Shown here one piece after another: positions 3,256 through 24,624 of a DNA stretch of 64,000 bases. Numbering within the stretch: position 1 is the first letter of the stretch; each line of letters opens with the position of its first letter. Location of the stretch: positions 115,788 to 179,787 of IMG/VR virus record IMGVR_UViG_3300021400_000027, one strand, 5' to 3'. Both the position numbers and the translations under genes were made by a program. The notes under the pieces are model-generated. The model was given only the letters and a program-made list of their open reading frames with translations. It made no database searches and was not told the DNA's origin. The stretch comes from a virus. Taxonomy: Duplodnaviria > Caudoviricetes.

Positions 3256-3330
3256 AACATAAGCACTTAAAAATTTGATTTCTTTTTAAAAATAAAGTAT
3301 AATATATATACAATTTAAAAAGAAAGTATA

Positions 3331-3400
3331 AAGACAGTTCAGCAACTCTTAAAAAAACATTAGCTTTTGGGGACTAATTAGTTTAAACGAAACTGTCTTG
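3331..3400 (+). ncRNA. clamp RNA 1 (closing stem + CAGCAA; internal hairpin with TTTGGG loop)
   Basis: AAGACAGTT...AACTGTCTT-G stem with CAGCAA directly after the 5' strand. Confidence 0.7.
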
Positions 3401-3406
3401 TTATTT

Positions 3407-3480
3407 GCGTCTGTAGCTCAGATGGTTAGAGCATCGCTCTTTTAAAGCGAGGGTCATGCGTTCAAATCGCATCAGACGCA
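3407..3480 (+). tRNA. tRNA-Lys(TTT)
   Basis: cloverleaf; TCGCT-CTTTTAA-AGCGA anticodon arm. Confidence 0.9.
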
Positions 3481-3484
3481 CTAT

Positions 3485-3553
3485 GGAGATGCAGCAGGAT
3501 ATTTATTTATAAATTTGAATCTGCATGAGGGTCAAATCCTTCCATCTCCACCA
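3485..3553 (+). ncRNA. reduced tRNA-like RNA (acceptor stem + T-like arm + CCA, no normal D/anticodon arms)
   Basis: GGAGATG/CATCTCC-A-CCA, same acceptor stem as tRNA-Ser(GCT) at 3932. Confidence 0.55.
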
Positions 3554-3620
3554 TTTAAAAAATTGACTTTTAATTAAAAATTGTATATAATATATATACA
3601 ATTTAAAAAGAAATTTAAAT

Positions 3621-3691
3621 TGCCCGTTCGTCTAAAGGTAGGACAGCAGTTTTTGGCACTGCTGATAGGAGTTCGATTCTCTTACGGGCAA
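3621..3691 (+). tRNA. tRNA-Gln(TTG)
   Basis: GCAGT-TTTTGGC-ACTGC; acceptor TGCCCGT/ACGGGCA. Confidence 0.9.
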
Positions 3692-3699
3692 TCATAAAT

Positions 3700-3774
3700 G
3701 CAGGGAGAGCTTATTAGGTACAAGCACTCGCCTTATAAGCGAGAGATAGTCGGGTTCAAATCCCACGCCCTGTA
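3700..3774 (+). tRNA. tRNA-Ile(TAT)
   Basis: CTCGC-CTTATAA-GCGAG anticodon arm; TTCAAAT T-loop. Confidence 0.75.
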
Positions 3775-3776
3775 TA

Positions 3777-3848
3777 AAGACAGTTCAGCAACTCTTTTTA
3801 AGAACATTAGTATTTGGGAACTGATTAGTTTAAAATGAAACTGTCTTG
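3777..3848 (+). ncRNA. clamp RNA 2 (internal hairpin with Pro-like TTTGGGA loop)
   Basis: AAGACAGTT-CAGCAA...AACTGTCTT-G; paralog of 3331-3400. Confidence 0.7.
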
Positions 3849-3854
3849 TTATTT

Positions 3855-3927
3855 GCTCCCATAGCTTAGTTGGTAAAGCATCACACTTTTAATGTGAGGA
3901 GCGAGAGTTCGAGTCTCTCTGGGGGCA
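3855..3927 (+). tRNA. tRNA-Lys(TTT), second copy
   Basis: TCACA-CTTTTAA-TGTGA. Confidence 0.9.
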
Positions 3928-3931
3928 TTAT

Positions 3932-4019
3932 GGAGATGTGGCAGAGTTGGTCGAATGCGGCACACTGCTAATGTGTTTGTCATTAAGTTGGCACGAAGGT
4001 TCGAATCCTTTCATCTCCG
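3932..4019 (+). tRNA. tRNA-Ser(GCT)
   Basis: GCACA-CTGCTAA-TGTGT, long variable arm, G73. Confidence 0.9.
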
Positions 4020-4095
4020 TCAATTAAAAAATTGACTTTTAATTAAAAATTATGTATAATATATATACAATTTGATTTAAAAGTCAAATATAAAC

Positions 4096-4169
4096 TGCCC
4101 TGTGGACAAGTGGCTTAAGTTGGGAGTCTCTAAAACTCTAAGACCTCCGTTCGAATCGGAGCAGGGCAA
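4096..4169 (+). tRNA. amber suppressor tRNA (anticodon CTA), probably Gln-charged
   Basis: GGAGT-CTCTAAA-ACTCT arm; acceptor TGCCCTG/CAGGGCA-A resembles tRNA-Gln(TTG) TGCCCGT/ACGGGCA-A; own promoter upstream. Confidence 0.85.
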
Positions 4170-4176
4170 TCGAACT

Positions 4177-4232
4177 AAGACGGTTCAGCAACTCTATTTA
4201 TTTGATATGTGGCTTCAAATTTCTCCGTCTTG
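4177..4232 (+). ncRNA. clamp RNA 3 (internal hairpin with His-like TGTGGC loop)
   Basis: AAGACGG-TT-CAGCAA...CCGTCTT-G; TTTGA-TATGTGGCT-TCAAA hairpin. Confidence 0.7.
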
Positions 4233-4329
4233 AAAGTTCAAATCAATTAAAAATTTGAAATTTCTTTTAAAATTTGCTATAATATTTATAGTAAATGAGA
4301 AAGAAAGCCAAATTGAAAGGAGCAAGCCT

Positions 4330-4575
4330 ATGTATATTTCAGTTCAGTTTAAGAATAAAAACAAAGAGTTTGTTGGTAAGCATTATGACTATGAATTGCT
4401 TCCTGATGAAAAAGTACCGGCAGTTGGCTCTATTATCCGAATGATGGACGAAAATTATAATTTTGTGTGTTACGGCACAAGAGTTATGGTTACTTCCGTT
4501 AAAATGAAAAGTGCTTCGGCAAAGGTCGCTATCAGATGTCTTGAAACGACACTTGATGATGAACAGGACAGTTAA
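4330..4575 (+). CDS. hypothetical protein
   Basis: ATG at 4330 follows GAAAGGAG RBS; shorter than the ORF-track call. Confidence 0.7.
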   Translation: MYISVQFKNKNKEFVGKHYDYELLPDEKVPAVGSIIRMMDENYNFVCYGTRVMVTSVKMKSASAKVAIRCLETTLDDEQDS

Positions 4576-4629
4576 AAATTTGAAATAAAAAATAAAATGA
4601 AGTATAATAATTATAGAAATTAAAGAAAT

Positions 4630-4703
4630 GGGAGAGTAGCTCAGTCGGTGGTAGCAAACGGCTGTTAACCGTTAGGTCAAGGGTTCGAGTCCCTTCTCTC
4701 CCG
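4630..4703 (+). tRNA. tRNA-Asn(GTT)
   Basis: AACGG-CTGTTAA-CCGTT. Confidence 0.9.
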
Positions 4704-4713
4704 TTATTTAAAT

Positions 4714-4786
4714 GGGGTTGTAGTTCAGTTGGGAGAACGTTTGTCCTGCAAACAAAAGGTCGTGGGTTCGATTCCCACCTTCTCCA
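4714..4786 (+). tRNA. tRNA-Ala(TGC)
   Basis: TTTGT-CCTGCAA-ACAAA; G3:U70 pair; C at position 33 and two acceptor mismatches. Confidence 0.8.
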
Positions 4787-4790
4787 CTTT

Positions 4791-4867
4791 GGGAACGTAG
4801 CTTAGTTGGTAAAAGCACTCGGCTGATAACCGAGAGACCAGCGGTTCGAGTCCGCTCGTTCCCACCA
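4791..4867 (+). tRNA. tRNA-Ile(GAT)
   Basis: CTCGG-CTGATAA-CCGAG; encoded CCA. Confidence 0.92.
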
Positions 4868-4870
4868 AAT

Positions 4871-4944
4871 GCGGAATTGGTGTAATGGTAGCATTTCTGC
4901 CTTCCAAGCAGACAGTGGGGGTTCAAATCCCCTATTCCGCTCCA
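4871..4944 (+). tRNA. tRNA-Gly(TCC)
   Basis: TCTGC-CTTCCAA-GCAGA; U73-CCA. Confidence 0.92.
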
Positions 4945-4946
4945 AT

Positions 4947-5031
4947 GGGTAAGTATGCAAACTGGTGAAGCGAGCTGTCTGTAAAACAGTTGCCATTGGC
5001 GTTGTAGGTTCGAGTCCTACCTTACCCACCA
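4947..5031 (+). tRNA. tRNA-Tyr(GTA)
   Basis: GCTGT-CTGTAAA-ACAGT; long variable arm; CCA. Confidence 0.92.
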
Positions 5032-5033
5032 TT

Positions 5034-5247
5034 AAGACAGTTACAGCAACTTCACATAGAAAAGATATTTATTTAGTAAATTTAGTTTGTGGAGTTCTCC
5101 CGTGATGTGATAGGGAGAAAGAATTAAAGTTCGCACTCAACTATAAAGTGCAATAAAAATTTATTTTCGCCGTATAGGTGGCGGAGTTGTTTCGCCGCCG
5201 GCGGGTTTCCCTTGACCTTATAAGGAATTTAAATTTTAGCTGTCTTG
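5034..5247 (+). ncRNA. clamp RNA 4 (long, multi-hairpin insert)
   Basis: AAGACAGTTA-CAGCAA...TAGCTGTCTT-G enclosing about 190 nt with several hairpins. Confidence 0.65.
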
Positions 5248-5249
5248 CA

Positions 5250-5648
5250 TAGGTCGCCTAAATAAAGGCTTACCCTTTAAAGTTAAATTTATGCATGGTT
5301 TCAGGAAACCGAAAAATCCGAATCGAAGTTGAGCCGCCATTCAACTTCGTCCTGTGGCGGCAGGTTTTGAGGGTGGAGACCTTTTAAACTCCCGTTTGAC
5401 GAACGTTATTAAAGTCTGACAGATGACATAATATTGCTCTAAATAGCCTCATCTAAGAATGGAATTTGAGCAGGTTAGAGTTTATCCTTAAAGCCAACCG
5501 GTTGAAAGTCCGTTGGACGGTAATAATCGTCCAAAGAATGGGAACTATTTGCTGACCTTCACGTGGTGTTTCTGAGTTTGGCTAACAGCAAAAAGTGATA
5601 CTCGGCTTTATAGTTGAGAAAGTTATCCGAGTTAAACGCTTCTCAACA
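5250..5648 (+). ncRNA. candidate large structured ncRNA with two pseudoknots
   Basis: no ORF; CGAAGTTGA/TCAACTTCG hairpin whose loop GCCGCCA matches downstream TGGCGGC; TTGGACG/CGTCCAA; GTTGAGAA/TTCTCAAC with loop CCGAGT matching upstream ACTCGG. Confidence 0.55.
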
Positions 5649-5665
5649 AAATTTATTAGATAGGA

Positions 5666-6250
5666 GTGATAACTTTGGTTGGAAATTGGGACATTAATGT
5701 TGTTGTAGGTAAGCTTCCGCAGAAAGTTGCTACTGCTTTTGCAAATCTTGGTGAAACAATTATTGGAGCAACATATACTCCAATTGCATATATTGGTTCA
5801 CAGATTGTGAATGGAGTAAATCATGCGGTATTGGCTGAACAGACAATTATTACCGGCAGAGATACAAAGAATATCGTCTTAATTATTTTTAATGAAAAAC
5901 CAGAGGGTGTTTCGTTAGTTAATATTGAGAGAGTTGTTGAAGGCGGTTTGGAACTCGGCGGAACAAAAATTGATGTAAAAACTGAAATTCCAGAAGATGC
6001 TCAGTCTGCATTCAATGAAGCAATTGGTAGCTTTGTTGGTTCTACAGTAGAACCCTTTGCATTAGTTGCAACTCAGGTTACAAAAGGTACGGACTACATC
6101 TTTGTAGCAACTGTTAAGCCTTTGGCACTTGAAGCAAAAGCAACTGTTGCTCTGGTTACGGTGAATACTCTTGAAAAGAGAATTTCCTTTATTGATGTGA
6201 TTCAGCCGAATCTTAATAAAGCAAGTCTTGGATATGCTTTTACTTGGTAA
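5666..6250 (+). CDS. hypothetical protein with internal duplication
   Basis: 194-aa ORF; two similar halves (AF..G..G.T..P.A...Q.V.G..). Confidence 0.75.
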   Translation: MITLVGNWDINVVVGKLPQKVATAFANLGETIIGATYTPIAYIGSQIVNGVNHAVLAEQTIITGRDTKNIVLIIFNEKPEGVSLVNIERVVEGGLELGGTKIDVKTEIPEDAQSAFNEAIGSFVGSTVEPFALVATQVTKGTDYIFVATVKPLALEAKATVALVTVNTLEKRISFIDVIQPNLNKASLGYAFTW

Positions 6251-6347
6251 TAGGGAGATTAAATTCTCCCCTACCAATTAAAAATTTGAAATTTCTTTTA
6301 AAATTTGCTATAATATTTATAGTAAATGAGAAAGAGATAAAAAAAAT

Positions 6348-6423
6348 AGCGGAGTGGAGCAGTTGGTAGCTCGCAAGATTCATTATCTTGAGGTCGTAGG
6401 TTCAAGTCCTGCCTCCGCAACCA
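6348..6423 (+). tRNA. tRNA-Met(CAT), initiator-like
   Basis: CAAGA-TTCATTA-TCTTG; 1:72 mismatch; CCA; lacks the three G:C anticodon-stem pairs. Confidence 0.85.
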
Positions 6424-6430
6424 GCACTTA

Positions 6431-6561
6431 AAGATACGTACAGCAAACCACTTAGCTTAGGAATTTTAATCCCCGTGATGCAGGTTCGAGTCCTGTCTTT
6501 ACAGTCTTTACTGTAAAGTAGCTTAATTGGCAGAGCAGGTAAATGCAAACAACGTATCTTG
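6431..6561 (+). ncRNA. clamp RNA 5 carrying circularly permuted tRNA-Lys(TTT)
   Basis: AAGATACGT-A-CAGCAA...ACGTATCTT-G; order anticodon loop, T arm, acceptor 3' strand, loop, acceptor 5' strand, D arm. Confidence 0.8.
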
Positions 6562-6567
6562 TTAAAT

Positions 6568-6642
6568 GCCTCATTAGCTTAGATGGTCGAAAGCACCCGA
6601 CTCTTAATCGGGGGAGCATGGGTTCAAATCCCATATGGGGTA
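6568..6642 (+). tRNA. tRNA-Lys(CTT)
   Basis: CCCGA-CTCTTAA-TCGGG. Confidence 0.9.
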
Positions 6643-6646
6643 CTAT

Positions 6647-6723
6647 GGCGGTGTAGTTCAGTAGTGTAGAACATCGGACTGTCACTCCGAAGGTCGCCGG
6701 TTCGAGTCCGGTCATCGTCGCCA
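6647..6723 (+). tRNA. tRNA-Asp(GTC)
   Basis: TCGGA-CTGTCAC-TCCGA; G73-CCA. Confidence 0.92.
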
Positions 6724-6725
6724 TA

Positions 6726-6849
6726 AAGACACATCAGCAAAACAATTCTTTTGCATTGGGAGCATGAGTTAGAGGTTCGATTCCTCTATCCACGACCAAA
6801 TTATACTGTGGATTGGTGAAATGGTATCACGCATTATAAGTGTGTCTTG
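6726..6849 (+). ncRNA. clamp RNA 6 carrying circularly permuted tRNA-Pro(TGG) with internal ACCA
   Basis: AAGACAC-AT-CAGCAA...GTGTCTT-G; ATCCACG-A-CCA linker TGTGGAT. Confidence 0.8.
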
Positions 6850-6855
6850 TATTTT

Positions 6856-6928
6856 GCTTCTGTAGCACAATTGGTAGTGCATCTCACTTGTAATGAGAGG
6901 GTTGTAGGTTCGAGTCCTATCAGAAGCT
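6856..6928 (+). tRNA. tRNA-Thr(TGT)
   Basis: TCTCA-CTTGTAA-TGAGA. Confidence 0.92.
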
Positions 6929-6932
6929 CTAT

Positions 6933-7006
6933 GCCGGTGTAGCTCAGTTGGTAGTAGCGTATGCCTGAAGAGCATAGCGTCAGAGGTTCGATTCCTCTCG
7001 CCGGCA
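6933..7006 (+). tRNA. tRNA-Phe(GAA)
   Basis: TATGC-CTGAAGA-GCATA. Confidence 0.92.
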
Positions 7007-7012
7007 TCAGTT

Positions 7013-7139
7013 AAGATTCGTCAGCAGAAGTATTTCAAAATTTACATACACCAAATGCCAGTATGTATGGTGTAACGGTAGCACACTCACCAGTTAAGTG
7101 AGAGGTAAAGGTTCAACTCCTTTGGCAGAACGAATCTTG
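7013..7139 (+). ncRNA. clamp RNA 7 carrying tRNA-Asn(GTT)-like domain permuted between T arm and acceptor 3' strand
   Basis: AAGATTCGT-CAGCAG...ACGAATCTT-G; TACATAC-A-CCA linker GTATGTA, then D arm, CTCAC-CAGTTAA-GTGAG, T arm. Confidence 0.8.
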
Positions 7140-7143
7140 TTTC

Positions 7144-7215
7144 CGCCCTATCGTCTAACGGTTAGGACATCGCACTTTCTATGCGAAAATCCCAGTTCGA
7201 GTCTGGGTAGGGTGA
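7144..7215 (+). tRNA. tRNA-Glu(TTC)
   Basis: TCGCA-CTTTCTA-TGCGA. Confidence 0.88.
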
Positions 7216-7262
7216 TTAAGCGTTATTAAAACGCAAAAATAAGTAAAAGGAGAAGAGAGGTC

Positions 7263-7766
7263 ATGAATACTAAAAAATTTTATCGTGGTAATGGTCAAAT
7301 CGTAACCTACGATGGAATGATGAAAGTAATTGCAGACTACATCATGGAAGATACGAAAAGTGATTATGAAATCACAGTAGGCACAGATAGCCAAAACCAT
7401 GACCTAACAAAAATGGTTGAAGTTATCGCTGTACATCGTGTTGGAAAAGGTGGTATCTTCTTCTACAGAACAGAATATGTTCGTAAAATTCGAGTTTTAA
7501 AAGAAAAAATTGTTGAAGAAACATCTCGTTCTTTAGAGAACGCAGAGGGGTTATTAGATACAGTTCAACTTTATTTACTCGAAAAAGATATTGATATTGA
7601 CAAACTCAATATTCATTTTGTAATTCATTGTGATATTGGTCATGCCGGCAAGACACAAGCACTTATTAAAGAAATTGTTTCTTGGGTTCAGTCTTGTGGT
7701 TATGAATGTCAGATTAAGCCAGATAGCTATGCTGCGTCTGGTATTGCAAACAAAATTTCTAAGTGA
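7263..7766 (+). CDS. RNase H-like YkuK/DUF458 family protein
   Basis: VGTDSQ, HRVGKGG, IHCDIG, IKPDSYAAS motifs. Confidence 0.8.
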   Translation: MNTKKFYRGNGQIVTYDGMMKVIADYIMEDTKSDYEITVGTDSQNHDLTKMVEVIAVHRVGKGGIFFYRTEYVRKIRVLKEKIVEETSRSLENAEGLLDTVQLYLLEKDIDIDKLNIHFVIHCDIGHAGKTQALIKEIVSWVQSCGYECQIKPDSYAASGIANKISK

Positions 7767-7771
7767 ACAAT

Positions 7772-7875
7772 GCGTTGATAGCCAAGCATTAAAAGGCACT
7801 AAGACAATAGGAGTCCTTGTCGTGGGAACTTCACCCACATGGAATGCGTGTGATTGAAACTGCACACTCAACGCT
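7772..7875 (+). ncRNA. aberrant tRNA-like RNA with extra arm
   Basis: GCGTTGA/TCAACGC acceptor-like stem, TA-GCC..GGC D-like arm, GACAA/TTGTC, GTGGG/CCCAC and GTGTG/CACAC hairpins. Confidence 0.5.
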
Positions 7876-7878
7876 TTT

Positions 7879-7962
7879 GCCGCTGTGGTGGAATTGGCAG
7901 ACACAAGGGACTTAAAATCCCTCGGAGTAAAATCCGTACCGGTTCAAATCCGGTCAGCGGCA
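7879..7962 (+). tRNA. tRNA-Leu(TAA)
   Basis: AGGGA-CTTAAAA-TCCCT; long variable arm. Confidence 0.92.
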
Positions 7963-7966
7963 CTAT

Positions 7967-8027
7967 AAGACGGTTACAGCAATCTTTAAGGATTTATTTG
8001 GTTCGATTCCAGAGGTTTTCCGTCTTG
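7967..8027 (+). ncRNA. clamp RNA 8 carrying an isolated T-arm hairpin
   Basis: AAGACGG-TTA-CAGCAA...CCGTCTT-G; TTTGG-TTCGATT-CCAGA. Confidence 0.7.
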
Positions 8028-8058
8028 AAGATTTTATTTTGAAAAGGAGATAATCTAA

Positions 8059-8673
8059 ATGAGAAAAGTTATTATTGTTATTTTATCCGTTATTGCTATT
8101 GCGACAATTGTACTGCCTGAGGGAGAGTACGGTCCGGTAACTATTACTTCTTACGCCGCAGAGGGACAGTTTAATTCAAATGGATTACAGGCTAATAACC
8201 TTGGTATTCCTATTAATGAATTTGTTGACGCTCCGGCAACAGCACCAATTCCTTTTGGTCAGCTTGTTGATGCTCCTATGACTGCACCAGTATCAGTTCC
8301 TTCTGATAAGTTTGTTGATGCTCCTATGACTGCACCGTCAGCGGAGACTTCTATGACTACAACTACAAAAGAAACTACAACTACAGCTGAACTTGTGTCA
8401 GCTCCAGAAACCGCACCAGAAGTTTTAGATACTGCTCCAGCGACAGCACCAACAACTACTACCTCAACCACTACTTCAACTACTACTACAGTAACAACCA
8501 CCACAACTACAGCTACCACTTCGGCTTCAACCGTTTTGGCAGATATGAAGTGTGCAGATGGTGCTGAATTAAGAGTAAGTGAAGATTCAAACGGTAAGGT
8601 TGAAATTGAAGCATCAGGCGAAAAAGACTTACTTAAAGAAATTTTTGGTTTTATTAAAGACCTGTTTTCTTAA
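8059..8673 (+). CDS. exported/membrane-anchored protein with VDAP(M/A)TAP repeats and poly-Thr linker
   Basis: N-terminal basic+hydrophobic segment; repeats and Thr tract visible in translation. Confidence 0.75.
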   Translation: MRKVIIVILSVIAIATIVLPEGEYGPVTITSYAAEGQFNSNGLQANNLGIPINEFVDAPATAPIPFGQLVDAPMTAPVSVPSDKFVDAPMTAPSAETSMTTTTKETTTTAELVSAPETAPEVLDTAPATAPTTTTSTTTSTTTTVTTTTTTATTSASTVLADMKCADGAELRVSEDSNGKVEIEASGEKDLLKEIFGFIKDLFS

Positions 8674-8692
8674 GCGGTTCGCCGCTTAATAT

Positions 8693-8766
8693 CGGGGATT
8701 ACGTCAATTTGGTAGACGGCGGCATTTGGGATGCCGAGGCTGCGAGTTCGAGTCTCGCATCTCCGA
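8693..8766 (+). tRNA. tRNA-Pro(TGG)
   Basis: CGGCA-TTTGGGA-TGCCG; C1:G72, A73. Confidence 0.9.
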
Positions 8767-8856
8767 CTAAAGCACCTAATGCGGATATGGTGCTATATTT
8801 TCATGGTGATTACCTCCTAAAATTGCCAAAGTTGTGTCGCTTGGCGGCACAACGCT

Positions 8857-8935
8857 GGGGATATGGTGGAATGGCAGACACGCTTGCCTTAGAAGCAAGT
8901 GCTTCGGCGTGAGAGTTCAAGTCTCTCTATCCCCA
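8857..8935 (+). tRNA. tRNA-Leu(TAG)
   Basis: CTTGC-CTTAGAA-GCAAG. Confidence 0.92.
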
Positions 8936-8942
8936 CTAAAAT

Positions 8943-9015
8943 GGAGTCGGTAGTGTAATGGCTAACACGTCAGTTTGTGGCACTGATAATGAGAGTTCGA
9001 TTCTCTCCCTTCTCC
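8943..9015 (+). tRNA. tRNA-His(GTG) with encoded G-1
   Basis: TCAGT-TTGTGGC-ACTGA; G-1:C73. Confidence 0.85.
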
Positions 9016-9104
9016 CTTGGTGCGCAGGTTTGATGCAATGCGACATGTTCAGAAATCCGTGTACTATAGAGTATTCCTGCACAATCTATAGCGGTATTTA
9101 ATTA

Positions 9105-9250
9105 AAGACACTACAGCAAAACATTTCTAAATGGACTGTAAATCCGTTGGGGAAGTCCCTTCGTAGGTGCAAATCCTATCCTCGCCCACCAAAATATGGG
9201 CGAGTAGCCAAGTAGACAAAGGCGACGGACCATATATTAAAAGTGTCTTG
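9105..9250 (+). ncRNA. clamp RNA 9 carrying circularly permuted tRNA-Tyr(GTA) with internal ACCA
   Basis: AAGACAC-TA-CAGCAA...GTGTCTT-G; ATGGA-CTGTAAA-TCCGT, long variable arm, CTCGCCC-A-CCA linker GGGCGAG, D arm, ACGGA. Confidence 0.85.
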
Positions 9251-9254
9251 AAAT

Positions 9255-9335
9255 GTGGAGATGCCAGAGTGGTTGATTGGGACGGACTGCAACTCCGTTG
9301 CGTAAGCCTCGTCGGTTCGAATCCGACTCTCCACT
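9255..9335 (+). tRNA. tRNA-Cys(GCA) with long variable arm
   Basis: ACGGA-CTGCAAC-TCCGT; U73; 12-nt variable region. Confidence 0.85.
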
Positions 9336-9340
9336 TTAAT

Positions 9341-9414
9341 CTCCCCTTAGCTCAATTGGATAGAGCAACGGATTTCTAATCCGTAGGTTGAAGGTTCGAG
9401 TCCTTCAGGGGAGG
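9341..9414 (+). tRNA. tRNA-Arg(TCT)
   Basis: ACGGA-TTTCTAA-TCCGT. Confidence 0.92.
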
Positions 9415-9422
9415 CTTAATTT

Positions 9423-9496
9423 GTCGCTTTAGTTCAATTGGATTAGAACCTCCGGCTACGAACCGGAAGATACGAGTTCAAGTCTTGTAGGCGGCG
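9423..9496 (+). tRNA. tRNA-Arg(ACG)
   Basis: TCCGG-CTACGAA-CCGGA. Confidence 0.9.
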
Positions 9497-9500
9497 TAAA

Positions 9501-9574
9501 AAGACAACTTACAGCAATTTAATTATATCGCCTTAAGTTTTTCCTGTACAGTGATATGTCAGGGTGTTGTCTTG
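9501..9574 (+). ncRNA. clamp RNA 10
   Basis: AAGACAAC-TTA-CAGCAA...GTTGTCTT-G. Confidence 0.7.
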
Positions 9575-9582
9575 ATTTAATT

Positions 9583-9671
9583 GGAAGATTAATTCAGCCG
9601 GCGCTGAACCTCGTCTTGAAAACGAGTGGTGCGGTGAAACGCATGGGGCTCGACACCTCAGTCTTCCGCCA
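9583..9671 (+). tRNA. tRNA-Ser(TGA)
   Basis: CTCGT-CTTGAAA-ACGAG; long variable arm; G73-CCA; atypical T loop. Confidence 0.8.
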
Positions 9672-9714: not shown

Positions 9715-9820
9715 AAGTTAAAATAATTTGAGTTTTTAAAAATTTTTTGCTATAATATTTATAGTGAAAAGGAAAAAGTCCGAATTAACTTTAACTTACA
9801 ATGAAAAGGAGAAATGTGTA

Positions 9821-11290
9821 ATGAGTTTTGTAAATCAGTTCAAAAGAATGTCCGATATGACCACCACTGAAAATGGAGGTCTGGCTTATAAGTCTACCGG
9901 CTCTGACCTTTTATCTCTGTTCGCTAATATTGGCGGTATGAGAGATAGAAATGATAGCGATATTATTTCTGCTTGGAAACTCGCAAGAAAGGAAGATAAG
10001 CTGTTAGCAGATAACCTTATTCTCTATTCTCGTGATATTCGTAATGCCGGACTTGGTGAGCGTAGAATTGGCAGACTCTTATTAAAAGAGCTTGCTATGG
10101 TTGACCCTCGTAAGGTAGAGCGTAATCTCCAGAAGATTGTCGATGCCGGCAGATGGGACGACTTGTTCGTATTTGAGGGAACTCCTGCATGGGATGAAAC
10201 CGTTCGCTTTATCCAGAATCAGTTCCGTACTGATGTCAATGGAATGAAGAAGAACGAACCTATTTCTCTGCTTGCAAAGTGGCTTCCTTCTATTAACGCT
10301 TCTTCTGAAAAGACTAAGCGTCTGGCTCGTACTTTCTGCACCTTGTTCAGCTTAACTCCTCGTACTTATCGTAAGAGCCTCTCCGCTATGCGTAAGTACA
10401 TTGATGTAGTTGAACGTAAGATGTCAGCTGGTCAGTGGAATGAAATTAACTTTGAAACTGTTCCTTCTGTTGCAATGTCTCGTTATATTGCAACCTACAA
10501 TAAGCGTTGTCAGGAACGCTTTGCCGAATACAAGGCTTCCCTTGAAAAGGGCGAAGCTAAGGTTAATGCGGCAACTCTCTTCCCTTATGACATTGCTTTA
10601 AAGTTCATAGGCAATTGTAATGGCTATGGTTGTAGATATACTCATCTGGATGCAGTTGATGAAGCACAGTGGAAGGCTCTGCCTAACTATGTTTCTGACG
10701 AGTTCGATGTAGTTGTAATGGCAGACGTATCCGGCTCTATGTACTCTTCTGATAGTCGTCCTATGGCAACTTCTATTGGTCTGGCAACTTACTTTGCTCA
10801 ACGCAACAAAGGTGCATATCACAATATGTATTTAAGTTTCACTGACCGTCCTCATTTCATTACCCTGCGTGACGAGATGTCGCTGGAAGATTGCTTAAAA
10901 TACGTGTTAAAGGAGGGTGTTGGCTACAATACTGACCTTGACCTTGCTTTTGAAGCTATCTATAAAGTGGCAAGCACTGCCGGAGAAGCACCTAAAGCTC
11001 TTGTCATTATTAGTGATATGGAGATTGATTCTTTCTGCGGAGAGAATTATGAATCCATTGCTCAAAAATGGCAGAGAATTTACGCTAAAGCTGGATTAAC
11101 TGCTCCTAAGTTAATTTGGTGGAATGTAGATTCCAGAGAGGGTAGAGTTCTCGCTCGTCAGGACGAGAATGTAGGATTTGTATCAGGTTATGGTGTCGGT
11201 CCGTTCAAGAATCTTCAATCTCTGATTGAAAAAGACGCTTATACCGCAATGGTAGAAATCCTCTCTCAGGACGCTTTCACTTGGAATTAA
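9821..11290 (+). CDS. DUF2828-type Ro60/TROVE-like protein with C-terminal vWA domain
   Basis: TENG..Y.STG, RDIR..GLGER, GRWDDL, AKWLPS, VPSVAM, MIDAS motif DVSGSM, ISDMEID, WNV; RBS AAGGAG before ATG 9821. Confidence 0.8.
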   Translation: MSFVNQFKRMSDMTTTENGGLAYKSTGSDLLSLFANIGGMRDRNDSDIISAWKLARKEDKLLADNLILYSRDIRNAGLGERRIGRLLLKELAMVDPRKVERNLQKIVDAGRWDDLFVFEGTPAWDETVRFIQNQFRTDVNGMKKNEPISLLAKWLPSINASSEKTKRLARTFCTLFSLTPRTYRKSLSAMRKYIDVVERKMSAGQWNEINFETVPSVAMSRYIATYNKRCQERFAEYKASLEKGEAKVNAATLFPYDIALKFIGNCNGYGCRYTHLDAVDEAQWKALPNYVSDEFDVVVMADVSGSMYSSDSRPMATSIGLATYFAQRNKGAYHNMYLSFTDRPHFITLRDEMSLEDCLKYVLKEGVGYNTDLDLAFEAIYKVASTAGEAPKALVIISDMEIDSFCGENYESIAQKWQRIYAKAGLTAPKLIWWNVDSREGRVLARQDENVGFVSGYGVGPFKNLQSLIEKDAYTAMVEILSQDAFTWN

Positions 11291-11312
11291 GGCGGTTACG
11301 CCGCCTTGATTT

Positions 11313-11527
11313 TAGGCTCTATACAGCAAAATCAATAGAAATATACATCAAATTGATTTTAGTTAAATAATTGGCATTTACCTGTAGTTGTCAAAACCTT
11401 GTAACAGGTTAAGTTACCGCACACTTCTTTTGTGTAAATGAAGTCCCTCCCGTTCCAGTTTGGGATTGTATAACTGGTGATAGTGGAATAAATTTTCTAC
11501 CGAAGTCTGAGAACAGCAAGAGCCTAG
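11313..11527 (+). ncRNA. clamp RNA 12 (long, multi-hairpin insert)
   Basis: TAGGCTCT-ATA-CAGCAA...AGAGCCTA-G immediately downstream of the DUF2828 gene. Confidence 0.6.
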
Positions 11528-11532
11528 TCTTA

Positions 11533-11580
11533 ACGATTCTTCAGCAGAATTGTTTCAAGAATTGAAAAAAAAGAATCGTG
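11533..11580 (+). ncRNA. clamp RNA 13
   Basis: ACGATTCTT-CAGCAG...AAGAATCGT-G. Confidence 0.6.
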
Positions 11581-13688: not shown

Positions 13689-14612
13689 ATGAAACAGAAA
13701 CATTATGTAGATATTGAACGTTTTAAGGCTAAATATGACGAAGCCATCAGCGTTGGTGACCTCATTCATGTAAGTGAGAAAATCGATGGTGCGAATGCTT
13801 CTTTCACCTATGACCCTGAAACCGGCACAGTAAAGGCTTTCAGTCGTAAGAATGAACTCTCTGCTGACAATACACTTCGAGGATTCTATAATTACGTTCA
13901 GAGTATGCCTCTTGATTTCGTTAAGCGAGTAGTAACAAATAACGGCAAGTGGGTAATTTTCGGAGAATGGCTTGTCCCTCATTCAGTTAAATATCCTGAT
14001 GAAGCATATCATCATTTTTACATCTATGATATATGGGACACAGAAAATGAAATCTGGTGTGACCAGAATTTCGTAAATCTCATGTGCTCTATATTTAAAT
14101 TATATTCTGTTGATGTGCGTCAGCCGGAATGCTTCTACTATGGAAAATTTAATGGTTGGGAAGAGCTTTATAAACTTGTAGGTAAAACCGCCATTGGGGC
14201 TACCCCGTGCGGCGAAGGTATCGTTATAAAGAACCAATCCGTACTTGACCAGAAGAATCGCCGACTGCCTACTTACATTAAAATTGTAAGTGAAAAGTTT
14301 GCAGAAGTTCATAAAAATAAGCCTAAGACTGTTGACCCCGAAGTGTTGAAACAGCGTGAAGCTTCTCGTCAGCTTGCGGCAACAATTGTCACTGAACAGC
14401 GTGTTCAGAAATTCCTGAATAAATTTGTTGACGAGGGTATCCTCCCTGAAGACTGGGACGAACGCAATTTCGGAACAATTGCAAAGACCTTACCTCGTGA
14501 AATTTACAATGACTGTGTAAAGGAAGAGCCGGAAACAACTAATCAAATTGAGGATTTCGGCAAAATTTGTGGCAAACTTACTATGGAACTTGTAAGGAGT
14601 CTAATAAAATGA
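13689..14612 (+). CDS. ATP-dependent RNA ligase, Rnl2-like
   Basis: nucleotidyltransferase motifs EKIDGAN, FGEW, FYIYDI, EGIVIK, IKIVSEKF. Confidence 0.8.
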   Translation: MKQKHYVDIERFKAKYDEAISVGDLIHVSEKIDGANASFTYDPETGTVKAFSRKNELSADNTLRGFYNYVQSMPLDFVKRVVTNNGKWVIFGEWLVPHSVKYPDEAYHHFYIYDIWDTENEIWCDQNFVNLMCSIFKLYSVDVRQPECFYYGKFNGWEELYKLVGKTAIGATPCGEGIVIKNQSVLDQKNRRLPTYIKIVSEKFAEVHKNKPKTVDPEVLKQREASRQLAATIVTEQRVQKFLNKFVDEGILPEDWDERNFGTIAKTLPREIYNDCVKEEPETTNQIEDFGKICGKLTMELVRSLIK

Positions 14613-15359: not shown

Positions 15360-16481
15360 ATGGCACAGCAATTATTAGAGTTACAAAAATTTATTCTGGC
15401 TAATCCTTCTGATTGGAAGGAAAAATTGCAGGCTAAACCCTACTGCCTGAAAATTCAGGAAGATGATGATTTAGTATTGTTCAAGTATTCCCAGATTGAT
15501 TCTGACTTCTCTGAGACAATTTGCCGTGAAGCCAGAGGGGTTATTCTTGAACGTGATACTTGGAAAATTGTAAGATTTGCTTTTCGTAAATTTTTTAATC
15601 TTGGTGAACCTCATGCCGATAAAATTGATTGGGAATCTGCTACTGCGACTTCTAAAGAGGACGGCTCTTTAATTTCTCTTTACTACTATAAAGGCTGGCA
15701 AATTGCTACTAATGGTAATCTGTATGCTTGGAACGCTCCTTTAGGTGTCGCCGGATTCCAGACTTTTGAAGATTTAGCTATGGAAGCACTTTTAAAATAT
15801 AATGTAGATTTTCATTCTTTGAATAAGAATTATACTTATACTTTTGAACTTTGCTCACCTTATAATCAAATCGTATGTTCCTATCCCGATATTCAGCTTT
15901 TCCATACTGTTACTGTTGATAATAGAACTCTTGAAGAAGTTGACGCTGAAATAGGAGTACCTAAACCTAAATTTTATGATTTAAATTCCAAAGTTGAGTA
16001 TGAGGAATTGGTTAATTCTTTACCGGAAAATACTGAAGGTATCGTTGTTCGTGACAAGTTTGGTAAACGAGTAAAAATTAAGACTAAACTCTATTTTGAA
16101 CTTCATAGACTTGTAAATAATGGGCATATTGATGTAGAAAAAGCATTGCAGTTAATTCTGGAAAATGACTACGAGGAACTTCTCGCTTATTATCCTAATT
16201 ATACTAATTTCTTTTCACAGGTCAAGGACGCATATAAAAATGCTCTTGATTATATTAAAGAAGTAAAAAGTTGGACTACAGAGTGGGAGAGGGAAAATCT
16301 CTTTACTGCTACTCGTGAAGGATTCGCTACTGCTCGTAAAATCTTCGCCGCCGCCGTAAAAGATAAACCTATTCCTTCCCTATACTTTTTAGCTTATGAC
16401 GGCAAACTGAAAAAATTTGAAGATGATTTAACTGCAAAGAAAATTTTATCTGTATTCAGAAACTATTTTGAGGGGATTTAA
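15360..16481 (+). CDS. T4 Rnl1-like RNA ligase
   Basis: EARG, FRKFFNLGE, KEDGSLI, FEL, EGIVV, KIK motifs. Confidence 0.85.
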   Translation: MAQQLLELQKFILANPSDWKEKLQAKPYCLKIQEDDDLVLFKYSQIDSDFSETICREARGVILERDTWKIVRFAFRKFFNLGEPHADKIDWESATATSKEDGSLISLYYYKGWQIATNGNLYAWNAPLGVAGFQTFEDLAMEALLKYNVDFHSLNKNYTYTFELCSPYNQIVCSYPDIQLFHTVTVDNRTLEEVDAEIGVPKPKFYDLNSKVEYEELVNSLPENTEGIVVRDKFGKRVKIKTKLYFELHRLVNNGHIDVEKALQLILENDYEELLAYYPNYTNFFSQVKDAYKNALDYIKEVKSWTTEWERENLFTATREGFATARKIFAAAVKDKPIPSLYFLAYDGKLKKFEDDLTAKKILSVFRNYFEGI

Positions 16482-21032: not shown

Positions 21033-21374
21033 GGGGGCGTACTGGTTTCGACTGGTAATTAAAAATCTTGTAAGCGAGTAGGACGGGTGAAGTCCTTTTA
21101 AGCACAACCTTAAATATAAACGCAGATTATGCAATTGCTGCCTAAGGCAGTCTTGAATTGAACGTTTAATTCGCACTTAATTAACGTTCCTCTAATTTGT
21201 TGTGCCGGCACGGGTAAATTGATTGAAAGCCTACTGCTGTAATTCTCAATCTGACTTAGAACTTGGGGTGTCAGTGACCTAAAGTTTGAACAACAAGTAT
21301 TTATACTGACTACACTCGTAGAAAGCAAGGTCGAGGTTATTAGGACAGGAGTTCGATTCTCCTCGCCTCCACCA
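21033..21374 (+). ncRNA. ssrA: tmRNA
   Basis: 5' GGGGGCG..GGTTTCGAC, 3' GGAC-AGGAG-TTCGATT-CTCCT-CGCCTCC-ACCA with G3:U pair; tag ORF 21122-21145 ADYAIAA*. Confidence 0.92.
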
Positions 21375-23859: not shown

Positions 23860-24624
23860 ATGGATAGAACTACAATCGGCAATAGAATGAAAGGCTATGA
23901 AGCCATTTCTAAAAATTTCTTAATGAGAAGAACACCTGCTATCGTACGCATTGATGGAAAGAGCTTCCACACCTTTACTCGTGGCTTTGATAAACCGTTT
24001 GATGAAGATTTTATGACCGCCATGCAAGAAACCATGAAGTACCTTTGTGAAAATATTCAGGGTTGTGTTCTCGGTTACACTCAGTCTGATGAAATTACCT
24101 TAGTTCTTTGTGATTACCAGACTCTTGAAACAGACGCTTGGTTCGGCTATAATGTTCAGAAGATGGTTTCTGTTTCTGCTTCAATGGCTACTTTTGCTTT
24201 TACTTCTGCTTTCAGTAAAATTTTAAGAGAAATGTGGGCTTCCAACGATATTTCTTTCGAAGGTAGAATTCAAATGATTGGAGAAAAACTTGAAAAAGGC
24301 GTTTTCTTCGATTCTCGTGCATTTTCTCTGTCTAAAGAAGAAGTTTGTAATTGCTTAATTTGGCGACAGCAGGATGCAACAAGAAACTCCATTCAGGCAG
24401 CTGGTCATGCATATTTCTCTCAAAAAGAACTCCACGGCTTAAATTGCAGTCAAATTCAAGAGAAATTGTTTTCTGAAGCCGGCATTAACTGGAATGACTA
24501 CTCTGTGCCGGAAAAGAGAGGCTCTTGCTGTATCAAAGAAGATGGTAAGTGGGTTCTTGATTACAACATTCCTATCTTTTCTCAGGACAGAAGCTACGTG
24601 AACTCTAGAATTACGTTTGAATGA
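23860..24624 (+). CDS. tRNA(His) guanylyltransferase Thg1-like protein (3'-5' polymerase)
   Basis: RMKGYE, RIDGKSFH, YTQSDEI, FDSR, WRQQDA motifs. Confidence 0.9.
   Translation: MDRTTIGNRMKGYEAISKNFLMRRTPAIVRIDGKSFHTFTRGFDKPFDEDFMTAMQETMKYLCENIQGCVLGYTQSDEITLVLCDYQTLETDAWFGYNVQKMVSVSASMATFAFTSAFSKILREMWASNDISFEGRIQMIGEKLEKGVFFDSRAFSLSKEEVCNCLIWRQQDATRNSIQAAGHAYFSQKELHGLNCSQIQEKLFSEAGINWNDYSVPEKRGSCCIKEDGKWVLDYNIPIFSQDRSYVNSRITFE

What the first reader, a model, noticed from the sequence alone, without database searches (positions are those of the whole stretch)
7013..7139. A fourth permuted tRNA (Asn-like) uses a different breakpoint, between T arm and acceptor 3' strand
Seen: inside the same clamp the acceptor 3' strand TACATAC-A-CCA (7043-7053) comes first, then a 7-nt linker, GTATGTA, an intact D arm, anticodon arm CTCAC-CAGTTAA-GTGAG and T arm AAAGG-TTCAACT-CCTTT. 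Position 33 is A instead of U. Inference: two independent permutation points inside one frame suggest repeated capture of tRNA cargo, plausibly from tandem tRNA genes or circular tRNA intermediates. Cutting the linker alone would give a two-piece tRNA with a free CCA end held by the clamp.
Basis: partly seen in the sequence, partly recalled or inferred. Interest (0 to 1): 0.75.

Follow-up and report, generated by a model that had tools for sequence, protein, structure and literature searches.

The report
tRNA-shaped partner RNA, unusual wiring
A small RNA gene between two tRNA genes of a 180-kb phage folds into a complete tRNA-Asn look-alike with rearranged strand order, held in a conserved "handle"; it is most likely a non-decoding partner RNA (Y-RNA analogue) of the phage's Ro60-shaped protein, not a new kind of tRNA gene.

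Summary
At 7012-7139 a 10-bp closing stem plus CAGCAG encloses, in order, the acceptor 3' strand with ACCA, a 7-nt linker, the acceptor 5' strand, then D, anticodon (GTT, A33) and T arms.

- Rfam's tRNA model hits the body alone (36.6 bits, positions 8-63).
- Rejoining the strands in silico makes ARAGORN call tRNA-Asn.
- Five distinct orthologues in two clades keep this order. The acceptor helix pairs 7/7 in all of them, and 4 pairs are changed on both sides.

The interpretation needs changing. The clamp is the handle of an RNA family that travels, on the same strand, with a DUF2828 protein. That protein's model matches Ro60 structures and nothing else over its full length. Most relatives have the YrlA-like order; a few hold an unpermuted tRNA.

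Two orthologues have swapped the Asn anticodon arm for a plain hairpin, and one of them has also lost CCA. A normal tRNA-Asn lies 2.3 kb upstream. Decoding is therefore unlikely.

Best reading: a Y-RNA-like tRNA mimic attached to the handle at tRNA position 65/66, probably opened by RNase P into two pieces, as shown for M. smegmatis YrlA.

This scan has already noted the CAGCAA-handle/Ro60-like system in at least 44 other genomes. The 65/66 wiring is the new part.

The parts
7012..7021 (+). Handle, 5' strand (TAAGATTCGT); pairs with 7130-7139
   Evidence: pair probabilities 0.9-1.0. In the orthologues, 2 pairs changed on both sides and 96% of cells are paired.
7022..7027 (+). Conserved unpaired motif CAGCAG (family consensus CAGCAA), the presumed contact for the Ro60-like protein
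   Evidence: 114 distinct frames beside DUF2828 genes. The sixth base was not imposed by the search and is A in 82% and G in 10%.
7028..7042 (+). A/U-rich 5' linker between the handle and the tRNA module
   Evidence: TTTCAAA/TTTAAA is retained in the orthologues.
7043..7053 (+). Acceptor 3' strand TACATAC, discriminator A, encoded CCA
   Evidence: CCA is kept in 4 of 5 orthologues.
7054..7060 (+). Linker AATGCCA closing the acceptor stem. The predicted RNase P site is between 7060 and 7061.
   Evidence: Sequence. The cleavage is inferred from the M. smegmatis YrlA precedent (PMC4201824).
7061..7123 (+). Acceptor 5' strand (7061-7067), U8 G9, D arm (7070-7084), anticodon arm (7086-7102; A33 at 7092, GTT at 7093-7095), variable loop, T arm (7107-7123)
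   Evidence: Rfam tRNA 36.6 bits over 7068-7123. ARAGORN calls tRNA-Asn after in-silico un-permutation.
7124..7129 (+). 3' linker GGCAGA between the T stem and the handle. GGCA could pair with UGCC at 7056-7059; the evidence is weak.
   Evidence: p about 0.035 in this copy, not significant in the others.
7130..7139 (+). Handle, 3' strand (ACGAATCTTG)
6286..6314 (+). Promoter-like site (TTGAAA-17-TATAAT, 11 of 12, TG extension). It heads the run tRNA-Met, E5, tRNA-Lys, tRNA-Asp, E6, tRNA-Thr, tRNA-Phe, E7, tRNA-Glu.
   Evidence: tRNAs.
9764..11290 (+). DUF2828 + vWA (MIDAS DxSGS) protein with a Ro60 fold, the presumed protein partner of the handle
   Evidence: Pfam. AlphaFold model pLDDT 91.3. 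The top 13 PDB matches are all Ro60/Rsr/phage Ro60, E 1e-8 to 2e-5.

Best explanation
E7 (7012-7139) is one of about 11-13 'CAGCAA-handle' small RNAs in this phage's tRNA array. These are analogues of bacterial and phage Y RNAs.

The 10-bp terminal stem plus the unpaired CAGCAG is the constant part. Inferred: it docks onto the Ro60-shaped DUF2828 protein encoded 2.6 kb downstream.

The variable part is a complete L-shaped tRNA-Asn mimic. Its acceptor stem is closed by an ACCA-containing loop. It is tied to the handle by single-stranded linkers that leave the tRNA at the T-stem/acceptor junction (65/66).

Inferred processing: the RNA is transcribed with its neighbouring tRNAs and released by their RNase P and 3'-end processing. 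RNase P then probably opens its own acceptor loop at 7060/7061. That would give a two-piece RNA of about 42 nt and 79 nt with a tRNA-like NCCA end, held together by the handle and the acceptor helix.

Inferred function: it does not decode. It presents a tRNA shape on the Ro60-like ring, either to tether a tRNA-binding enzyme (repair enzymes are encoded nearby) or to act as a decoy for host tRNA-cutting nucleases.
For: Shown:
- Anatomy and tRNA likeness.
- Conservation of this exact order in five distinct sequences from two clades, with 4 of 7 acceptor pairs, 2 handle pairs and 2 anticodon-stem pairs changed on both sides. 96% of cells pair, against 28-67% when partners are slid.
- The close relative L105 is 97% identical across E7, similar to the flanking tRNAs. 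Its changes lie in the acceptor loop and discriminator and in the T-stem 3' strand (two T-stem pairs lost).
- The handle motif occurs only in the tRNA island of the 180-kb genome: 8 forward, 0 reverse.
- In 80 loci found through DUF2828, the motif lies on the gene's strand about 140 times against 15 on the other strand.
- The DUF2828 model matches Ro60 over its full length and nothing else does. The MIDAS residues are invariant.
- Most permuted relatives have the YrlA order T-acceptor-D. Rfam YrlA weakly matches the neighbouring E5 at full length (31.6 bits).
- The island also encodes Rnl2-like and Rnl1-like RNA ligases and a Thg1-like enzyme.

From the literature:
- Y RNAs lie within a few kb of Ro60 on the same strand, carry a short 5'-strand motif next to a terminal stem, and mimic tRNA.
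- M. smegmatis YrlA is cut by RNase P and ends in CCA (PMC4201824).
- A phage Ro60 binds phage Y-like RNAs (PMC12135203).
Against: - No binding, expression or end-mapping data exist for this RNA or protein.
- The motif is CAGCA(A/G), not the GNCGAA of known Y RNAs. Rfam YrlA does not match E7.
- The protein is DUF2828, not Pfam TROVE. The Ro60 link rests on a predicted fold (TM 0.5-0.6).
- Thirteen partner RNAs for one protein is far more than in known Ro systems.
- Only two independent lineages carry the E7 wiring, so the covariation reflects one divergence.
- The T stem is weakened in the relatives (3-4 of 5 pairs).
- ViennaRNA's ensemble prefers another pairing for the acceptor and D region.
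Confidence: 0.65

Rival explanations
1. A genuine circularly permuted tRNA-Asn gene. The handle and linkers are cut away, a phage RNA ligase seals the 65/66 nick in the stacked acceptor/T helix, RNase P and 3' trimming open the acceptor loop, and a normal decoding tRNA results.
For: - The cloverleaf is complete, with all tertiary-pair nucleotides, a 7-bp acceptor and encoded ACCA.
- Rnl2-like and Rnl1-like ligases are encoded 6-9 kb downstream.
- A nick at 65/66 would sit in a continuous duplex, which from general knowledge is the kind of substrate Rnl2 seals.
Against: - A33 replaces the near-universal U33.
- Orthologues L013/L098 and L108 replaced the anticodon arm with CCCC-AAAAA-GGGG, and L108 also lost CCA, while keeping the rest.
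- A canonical tRNA-Asn(GTT) is present at 4629-4704.
- The same handle encloses cargos that cannot be tRNAs: a bare T arm, small hairpins and a 215-nt insert.
- The junction linkers carry no conserved cleavage motif.
- There is no bulge-helix-bulge motif, and from general knowledge bacteria have no splicing endonuclease.
Confidence: 0.07
2. A cis-acting processing or stability element of the polycistronic tRNA transcript. The clamp hairpins act as exonuclease blocks or nuclease entry sites, and the tRNA-like inserts recruit RNase P/Z. This works independently of the DUF2828 protein.
For: - Every frame sits 3-6 nt from a tRNA end inside promoter-headed tRNA runs.
- The acceptor linkers look like inter-tRNA spacers.
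Against: - A spacer function does not explain an invariant unpaired CAGCA on one strand only.
- It does not explain the co-inheritance of the motif with DUF2828 on the same strand across phages whose DUF2828 proteins are only about 40% identical.
- It does not explain selection for a full tRNA tertiary core in the cargo.
Confidence: 0.15
3. A decaying rearranged tRNA pseudogene with no function of its own, left by recombination between tandem tRNA genes.
For: - The linker ACCAAATGC is identical to the tRNA-Ile/tRNA-Gly junction at 4864-4872, and the D arm resembles that of tRNA-Gly.
- There are A33 and a weak T stem in the relatives.
Against: - The element is 97% conserved in L105, like the neighbouring tRNAs.
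- Both clades keep the same order, with compensatory changes in three helices.
- It is at most 65-70% identical to any tRNA of the phage.
Confidence: 0.05

Closest known systems
YrlA-type Y RNAs of bacteria and mycobacteriophages, bound by Ro60/Rsr (Rfam RF02553; Chen et al. 2014, PMC4201824)
   Same: - A terminal stem formed by the 5' and 3' ends.
- A short conserved motif on the 5' strand next to that stem.
- A tRNA-like module with T arm, D arm and an acceptor stem closed by a loop.
- Encoded within a few kb of the Ro60-type gene and on its strand.
- The M. smegmatis member has a 7-bp acceptor stem, is cut by RNase P and ends in CCA, giving two pieces.
   Different: - The motif is CAGCA(A/G), not GNCGAA.
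- The partner is DUF2828, not a Pfam TROVE protein.
- E7 keeps a full anticodon arm.
- Its order is acceptor-D-anticodon-T, with the handle joined at 65/66. YrlA runs T-acceptor-D, with the stem replacing the anticodon arm.
- It is embedded in a tRNA array with about a dozen sister RNAs.
- RF02553 does not match E7.
Deinococcus radiodurans Yrn1 (Y RNA with D-like, anticodon-like and T arms in tRNA order; PMC4201824)
   Same: The D, anticodon and T arms run in tRNA order relative to the 5' end, with the Ro-binding stem outside them.
   Different: - Per the paper, Yrn1 has no separate acceptor hairpin and a 6-nt 'anticodon' loop.
- E7 adds a 7-bp ACCA-bearing acceptor hairpin upstream and has a canonical 7-nt loop.
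Circularly permuted tRNA genes of Cyanidioschyzon merolae and Thermofilum (from my own knowledge: Soma et al. 2007; Chan et al. 2011)
   Same: The 3' part of the tRNA is encoded upstream of the 5' part, joined across the acceptor ends by a short linker that RNase P and 3' processing would remove.
   Different: - Those precursors end in a bulge-helix-bulge motif that is cut by the splicing endonuclease and ligated through a circular intermediate, giving a decoding tRNA.
- Here the termini form a perfect 10-bp helix with a conserved one-sided motif.
- The host is bacterial.
- The orthologues do not conserve the anticodon.
Two-piece (permuted) tmRNA
   Same: A permuted gene in which the acceptor 3' piece with CCA precedes the 5' piece. 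The mature RNA is two base-paired pieces.
   Different: - There is no mRNA-like reading frame.
- Rfam tmRNA_permuted gives no match in E7.
- The phage has an ordinary one-piece tmRNA at 21033-21374.

Membership tests
Y RNA (YrlA-like) / Ro60 RNP | Encoded near a Ro60-type protein gene and on the same strand | tested here: met
   The DUF2828 gene at 9764-11290 (+) lies 2.6 kb downstream. Its model matches Ro60 structures at E 1e-8. Across 80 loci the handle motif shows a strand bias of about 140:15.
Y RNA (YrlA-like) / Ro60 RNP | Terminal helix formed by the 5' and 3' ends, with a conserved 5'-strand motif beside it | tested here: met
   A 10-bp stem followed by unpaired CAGCAG. The stem covaries.
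Y RNA (YrlA-like) / Ro60 RNP | Ro-binding motif GNCGAA(N)G / GGUCCGA | tested here: not met
   The motif here is CAGCA(A/G). There is no CGAA next to the stem.
Y RNA (YrlA-like) / Ro60 RNP | Match to the Rfam YrlA covariance model at its gathering score (69 bits) | tested here: not met
   No match over E7. The neighbouring E5 scores 31.6 bits.
Y RNA (YrlA-like) / Ro60 RNP | tRNA-like module with the order T arm - acceptor stem-loop - D arm | tested here: not met
   The E7 order is acceptor - D - anticodon - T. Sister elements and most relatives do have the YrlA order.
Y RNA (YrlA-like) / Ro60 RNP | Physical binding to the Ro60-type protein | not testable with these tools
   Needs co-immunoprecipitation or EMSA.
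Ro60 / TROVE protein (for the partner) | HEAT-repeat ring plus a vWA domain with MIDAS | tested here: met
   Full-length Foldseek matches to 1yvp, 2i91, 2nvo, 9kop, 9l5y and 9nep. D303-x-S305-G-S307, T372 and D400 are invariant in 34 sequences.
Ro60 / TROVE protein (for the partner) | Match to Pfam TROVE (PF05731) | tested here: not met
   Only DUF2828, DUF7788 and a weak VWA_2 match. phmmer against PDB sequences finds no Ro60.
Circularly permuted tRNA gene (Cyanidioschyzon/Thermofilum type) | 3' part encoded upstream of the 5' part, and a complete cloverleaf after rejoining | tested here: met
   ARAGORN calls tRNA-Asn(gtt) after rejoining.
Circularly permuted tRNA gene (Cyanidioschyzon/Thermofilum type) | Bulge-helix-bulge motif at the precursor termini for the splicing endonuclease | tested here: not met
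   The termini form an uninterrupted 10-bp helix.
Circularly permuted tRNA gene (Cyanidioschyzon/Thermofilum type) | Conserved decoding identity (anticodon, U33) in orthologues | tested here: not met
   This copy has A33. The anticodon arm is replaced in L013/L098 and L108.

The most novel reading that the evidence does not exclude
E7 and its sisters are whole-tRNA decoys or baits displayed on a Ro60-like ring. After RNase P opens the acceptor loop, E7 is a two-piece, CCA-ended tRNA-Asn mimic. It either soaks up a host anticodon nuclease that targets the GUN-anticodon tRNAs (the sister cargos carry Tyr GUA, His-like GUG, Lys UUU and Pro UGG loops), or it hands damaged tRNAs to the adjacent ligase and Thg1-like repair enzymes. 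That would be a new phage counter-defence RNP built from a Y-RNA scaffold with freely re-wired tRNA modules.
Probability: 0.2. Interest if true: 0.85.

Novelty: new variant of a known kind. Interest (0 to 1): 0.58.

Why it matters
Y RNAs that mimic tRNA are known, but what the tRNA-like part is for is not. This element shows that a phage branch of the system keeps a complete tRNA shape, anticodon arm included, while the point of attachment to the protein-binding handle changes. Related phages attach it in the anticodon stem, at the acceptor ends, and here at position 65/66. The L-shaped body therefore appears to be the selected feature, not one fixed topology.

The element also offers a clean experimental substrate: a 128-nt RNA with a predicted RNase P site and a defined protein partner. 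It could be used to ask what Ro60-type particles do with tRNA mimics during phage infection.

Tried and rejected
- **Self-cleaving ribozyme or theta/HDV-like element next to tRNAs.** No Rfam match in any frame, even at E up to 5. The clamp closes both ends, which does not fit an HDV-like fold.
- **Recent copy of a phage tRNA.** Best identity is 65-70%, to Thr, Gly and His, not Asn.
- **Relatives through the adjacent RNase H-like gene.** None found in IMG/VR.
- **GenBank phages.** Only ordinary tRNA similarity was found.
- **Exact and gapped DNA patterns of the E7 body.**
  - IMG/VR gave only two other contigs.
  - The metagenome scan added L105, L108, L094 and L098. Its other hits were unrelated repeats or normal tRNAs.
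- **Search for the E7 wiring in other DUF2828 phages with two covariance models.** Beyond the five orthologues, the hits are normal tRNAs or handles holding unpermuted tRNAs.
- **Pseudoknot between the acceptor-loop linker and the T-arm/handle linker.** The candidates are UGCC/GGCA here and CCUCUC/GAGRGG in the other clade. Composition-preserving shuffles reach the same run length in 3.5% of trials here and 25-61% in the others, so this stays a possibility only.
- **MAFFT alignment of the orthologues** misaligned the arms. I used the alignment fitted to the covariance model instead, which leans towards the modelled structure.

Full report
**1. What is in the sequence**

The window is the last 64 kb of a 179,787-bp IMG/VR phage genome with terminal repeats. 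Positions 3300-9600 hold 24 tRNA genes, including an amber suppressor. The finding lies between tRNA-Phe (6932-7008) and tRNA-Glu (7144-7215). It sits downstream of a strong promoter-like site at 6286-6314 that heads a run of tRNAs and similar elements.

Read directly, the layout is:

| Part | Coordinates |
|---|---|
| 10-bp closing stem | 7012-7021 with 7130-7139 |
| Unpaired CAGCAG | 7022-7027 |
| A/U-rich linker | 7028-7042 |
| TACATAC, A, CCA | 7043-7053 |
| AATGCCA | 7054-7060 |
| GTATGTA | 7061-7067 |
| D arm | 7070-7084 |
| Anticodon arm CTCAC-CAGTTAA-GTGAG | 7086-7102 |
| T arm | 7107-7123 |
| GGCAGA | 7124-7129 |

All the nucleotides that build the tRNA elbow and core are present: U8, A14, G18G19, A21, A15:U48, T54-T55-C56, A58 and G53:C61.

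**2. More than chance**

- Rfam's tRNA model matches 7068-7123 above its gathering score (36.6 vs 29 bits), but only over model positions 8-63. That is a body without flanking acceptor strands.
- ARAGORN misses it in place. It calls a 74-nt tRNA-Asn(gtt) when 7061-7123 is joined to 7043-7053.
- By my own estimate, a perfect 7-bp partner placed 4-30 nt upstream and followed by NCCA is expected about 3e-5 times.
- The permuted cloverleaf costs only 0.6 kcal/mol more than the MFE. ViennaRNA's ensemble prefers a competing pairing for the acceptor and D region. This competing pairing is not decisive, because the model leaves out tRNA tertiary contacts.

**3. Relatives and covariation**

Relatives found through the DUF2828 protein, together with DNA-pattern scans, gave four further distinct copies of this element:

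- L105 is a 7-kb contig about 96% identical to this region.
- L009 (the same sequence as L094 and L095), L013 (like L098) and L108 form a second clade.

All five keep the order handle, CAGCA(A/G), linker, acceptor 3' strand, loop, acceptor 5' strand, D, anticodon arm, T, linker, handle.

I counted pairs on an alignment fitted to a covariance model built from this copy:

- The acceptor helix is paired in 35 of 35 cells. Four of its seven pairs changed on both sides (TACATAC/GTATGTA against TAACGCC/GGCGTTA).
- The handle has two such pairs, and the anticodon stem has two.
- Overall 96% of cells pair, against 28-67% when partners are slid.

The caveat is that there are only two independent lineages, so this is one divergence and not many events.

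**4. Why it is probably not a tRNA gene**

- L009 has a canonical U33 and GTT.
- L013/L098 and L108 replaced the whole anticodon arm by CCCC-AAAAA-GGGG while keeping everything else. ARAGORN no longer calls a tRNA in L013.
- L108 reads CTA where the others read CCA.
- This copy has A33, and its discriminator is A here but C in L105.
- A normal tRNA-Asn(GTT) is at 4629-4704.
- E7 is at most 65-70% identical to any tRNA of the phage, and Asn is not the closest.
- The same handle encloses cargos that cannot be tRNAs: a lone T arm at 7966-8027, small hairpins and a 215-nt insert.

**5. What the clamp is**

The motif (U)AAGA(C)-stem-(U/A)CAGCAA ... (G)UCUU(G) occurs 8 times forward and never in reverse in the whole genome, all inside the tRNA island. 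A looser scan lists about 11-13 frames.

The island ends at a 508-aa DUF2828 + vWA protein. In 80 IMG/VR loci found through that protein (37-60% identity), the motif lies on the gene's strand about 140 times and on the other strand 15 times. The base after CAGCA was not imposed by the search and is A in 82% of 114 distinct frames.

An AlphaFold model of the protein (34-sequence alignment, pLDDT 91.3, pTM 0.90) gives Ro60 structures as its 13 best PDB matches. These are Xenopus and human Ro60, D. radiodurans Rsr and Thermus phage phiLo Ro60. They align over 510-560 columns at E 1e-8 to 2e-5. Everything below them matches the vWA domain only. The MIDAS residues are invariant.

Pfam TROVE and sequence searches do not see the relationship.

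**6. Comparison with known Y RNAs**

According to Chen et al. 2014 (PMC4201824):

- Bacterial and phage Y RNAs lie within about 4 kb of Ro60 on the same strand.
- They carry a short motif (GNCGAA) near the 5' end, beside a terminal stem.
- They contain a tRNA-like domain with T and D arms and an acceptor-like stem-loop.
- M. smegmatis YrlA is the only one with a 7-bp acceptor stem. RNase P RNA cuts it in vitro. In vivo it is found as 82-nt and 65-nt pieces, the first ending in CCA, and both are bound to Rsr.

A phage Ro60 binding phage Y-like RNAs has been solved (PMC12135203). A comparative survey notes ROT/TROVE proteins in some jumbo phages as part of RNA repair (PMC7824862).

E7 shares the architecture and the genomic logic. 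It differs in four ways:

- the motif is CAGCA(A/G);
- the partner belongs to a different Pfam family;
- it has a full anticodon arm;
- it is wired differently.

Rfam YrlA does not match E7, though it weakly matches the neighbouring E5 at full length. I found no paper mentioning DUF2828 in this context.

**7. Where E7 sits within the family**

I un-permuted every frame at every 7-bp hairpin and ran ARAGORN on the results. Most permuted cargos open in the anticodon region, which is the YrlA order. This holds for three cargos in this window (E5, E6, E9) and for frames in L010, L013, L023, L036, L043, L047 and L048. Only E7 and its L013 orthologue open after the T arm.

Two covariance models of E7 found no further lineage with this wiring. 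They did find handles that enclose an unpermuted tRNA-like body at L009:7187-7303, L013:8018-8137 and L015:7401-7510.

So there are at least three attachment points: the anticodon stem, the acceptor ends and position 65/66. The E7 linker ACCAAATGC is identical to the tRNA-Ile/tRNA-Gly junction at 4864-4872, and the D arm resembles that of tRNA-Gly. That fits an origin from a tandem pair, but the evidence is weak.

**8. Mechanism proposed**

Shown: the fold-compatible sequence, its conservation, and the association of the handle with a Ro60-shaped protein.

Inferred:

- The handle docks on that protein.
- The RNA is released from the polycistronic transcript by processing of its tRNA neighbours.
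- RNase P opens the acceptor loop at 7060/7061, by analogy with M. smegmatis YrlA and because of the 7-bp stem and the NCCA kept in 4 of 5 copies.
- The resulting two-piece, L-shaped mimic tethers or traps a tRNA-binding protein.

The neighbourhood points to the contest over tRNA integrity. It contains Rnl2-like and Rnl1-like ligases, a Thg1-like enzyme, an RNase H-like protein, a tmRNA and 26 tRNAs.

Whether E7 is a tether for repair enzymes or a decoy for anticodon nucleases cannot be decided here. The replaced anticodon arm in two orthologues argues that the elbow and acceptor part matters more than the loop in this element.

**9. Verdict**

The element is a new wiring variant within an apparently uncatalogued branch of the Ro60/Y-RNA system. 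This scan has already met that branch in at least 44 other genomes, and I re-tested the link independently here.

Noticed in passing
window 3484-3550: A tRNA-like element in which a 7-8-bp acceptor-like stem (TGGAGATG/CATCTCCA) is followed by CCA. The stem itself plays the handle: CAGCAG follows its 5' strand directly, and a T-arm-like hairpin (GAGGGTCAAATCCTTC) precedes its 3' strand. It may be another attachment mode of the same family.
   Followed up: no
L009:8508-8749: One handle encloses a nested construct. A permuted His-like tRNA module (loop TTGTGGA) has a second tRNA-like body with its own ACCA and T arm in its acceptor linker. That second body carries a further insert.
   Followed up: no
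L013:5982-6124, L098, L108:44-185: Orthologues of E7 in which the Asn anticodon arm is replaced by a CCCC-AAAAA-GGGG hairpin. L108 also reads CTA instead of CCA in the acceptor loop.
   Followed up: yes
window 7056-7059 with 7124-7127: UGCC in the acceptor-loop linker can pair with GGCA just after the T stem. The other clade has CCUCUC/GAGRGG at the equivalent places. This may be a pseudoknot or a clamp for the 3' tail after RNase P cleavage, but the statistics are weak.
   Followed up: partly
window 5250-5650: About 400 nt without an ORF of 70 aa or more in the scan, and no Rfam match, directly after a 215-nt handle element (5033-5247). Probably another structured RNA.
   Followed up: no
window 4096-4169; L023:10001-11446: An amber-suppressor tRNA (anticodon CTA) in the array. 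The DUF2828 gene of the related phage L023 contains one in-frame stop codon. Some relatives may read a stop codon as sense.
   Followed up: no
window 21033-21374: A phage-encoded one-piece tmRNA (141 bits, tag ADYAIAA).
   Followed up: no
window 13689-14612, 15360-16481, 23860-24624, 7263-7766: An RNA-repair gene set around the array: Rnl2-like ligase (PF09414), Rnl1-like ligase (PF09511), a Thg1-like 3'-5' polymerase (PF04446), and an RNase H-like PF04308 protein inside the array.
   Followed up: partly
window 7144-7215 vs L105: The neighbouring tRNA-Glu has an entirely different anticodon stem in the 96%-identical relative L105 (TCGCA/TGCGA against AGAGA/TCTTT). The TTC anticodon is unchanged.
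   Followed up: no
window 11312-11527 and 11533-11579: Two further stem + CAGCA(A/G) frames just downstream of the DUF2828 gene with divergent stems (TTAGGCTCT..., ACGATTCTT...). The handle RNAs may flank the gene on both sides.
   Followed up: no
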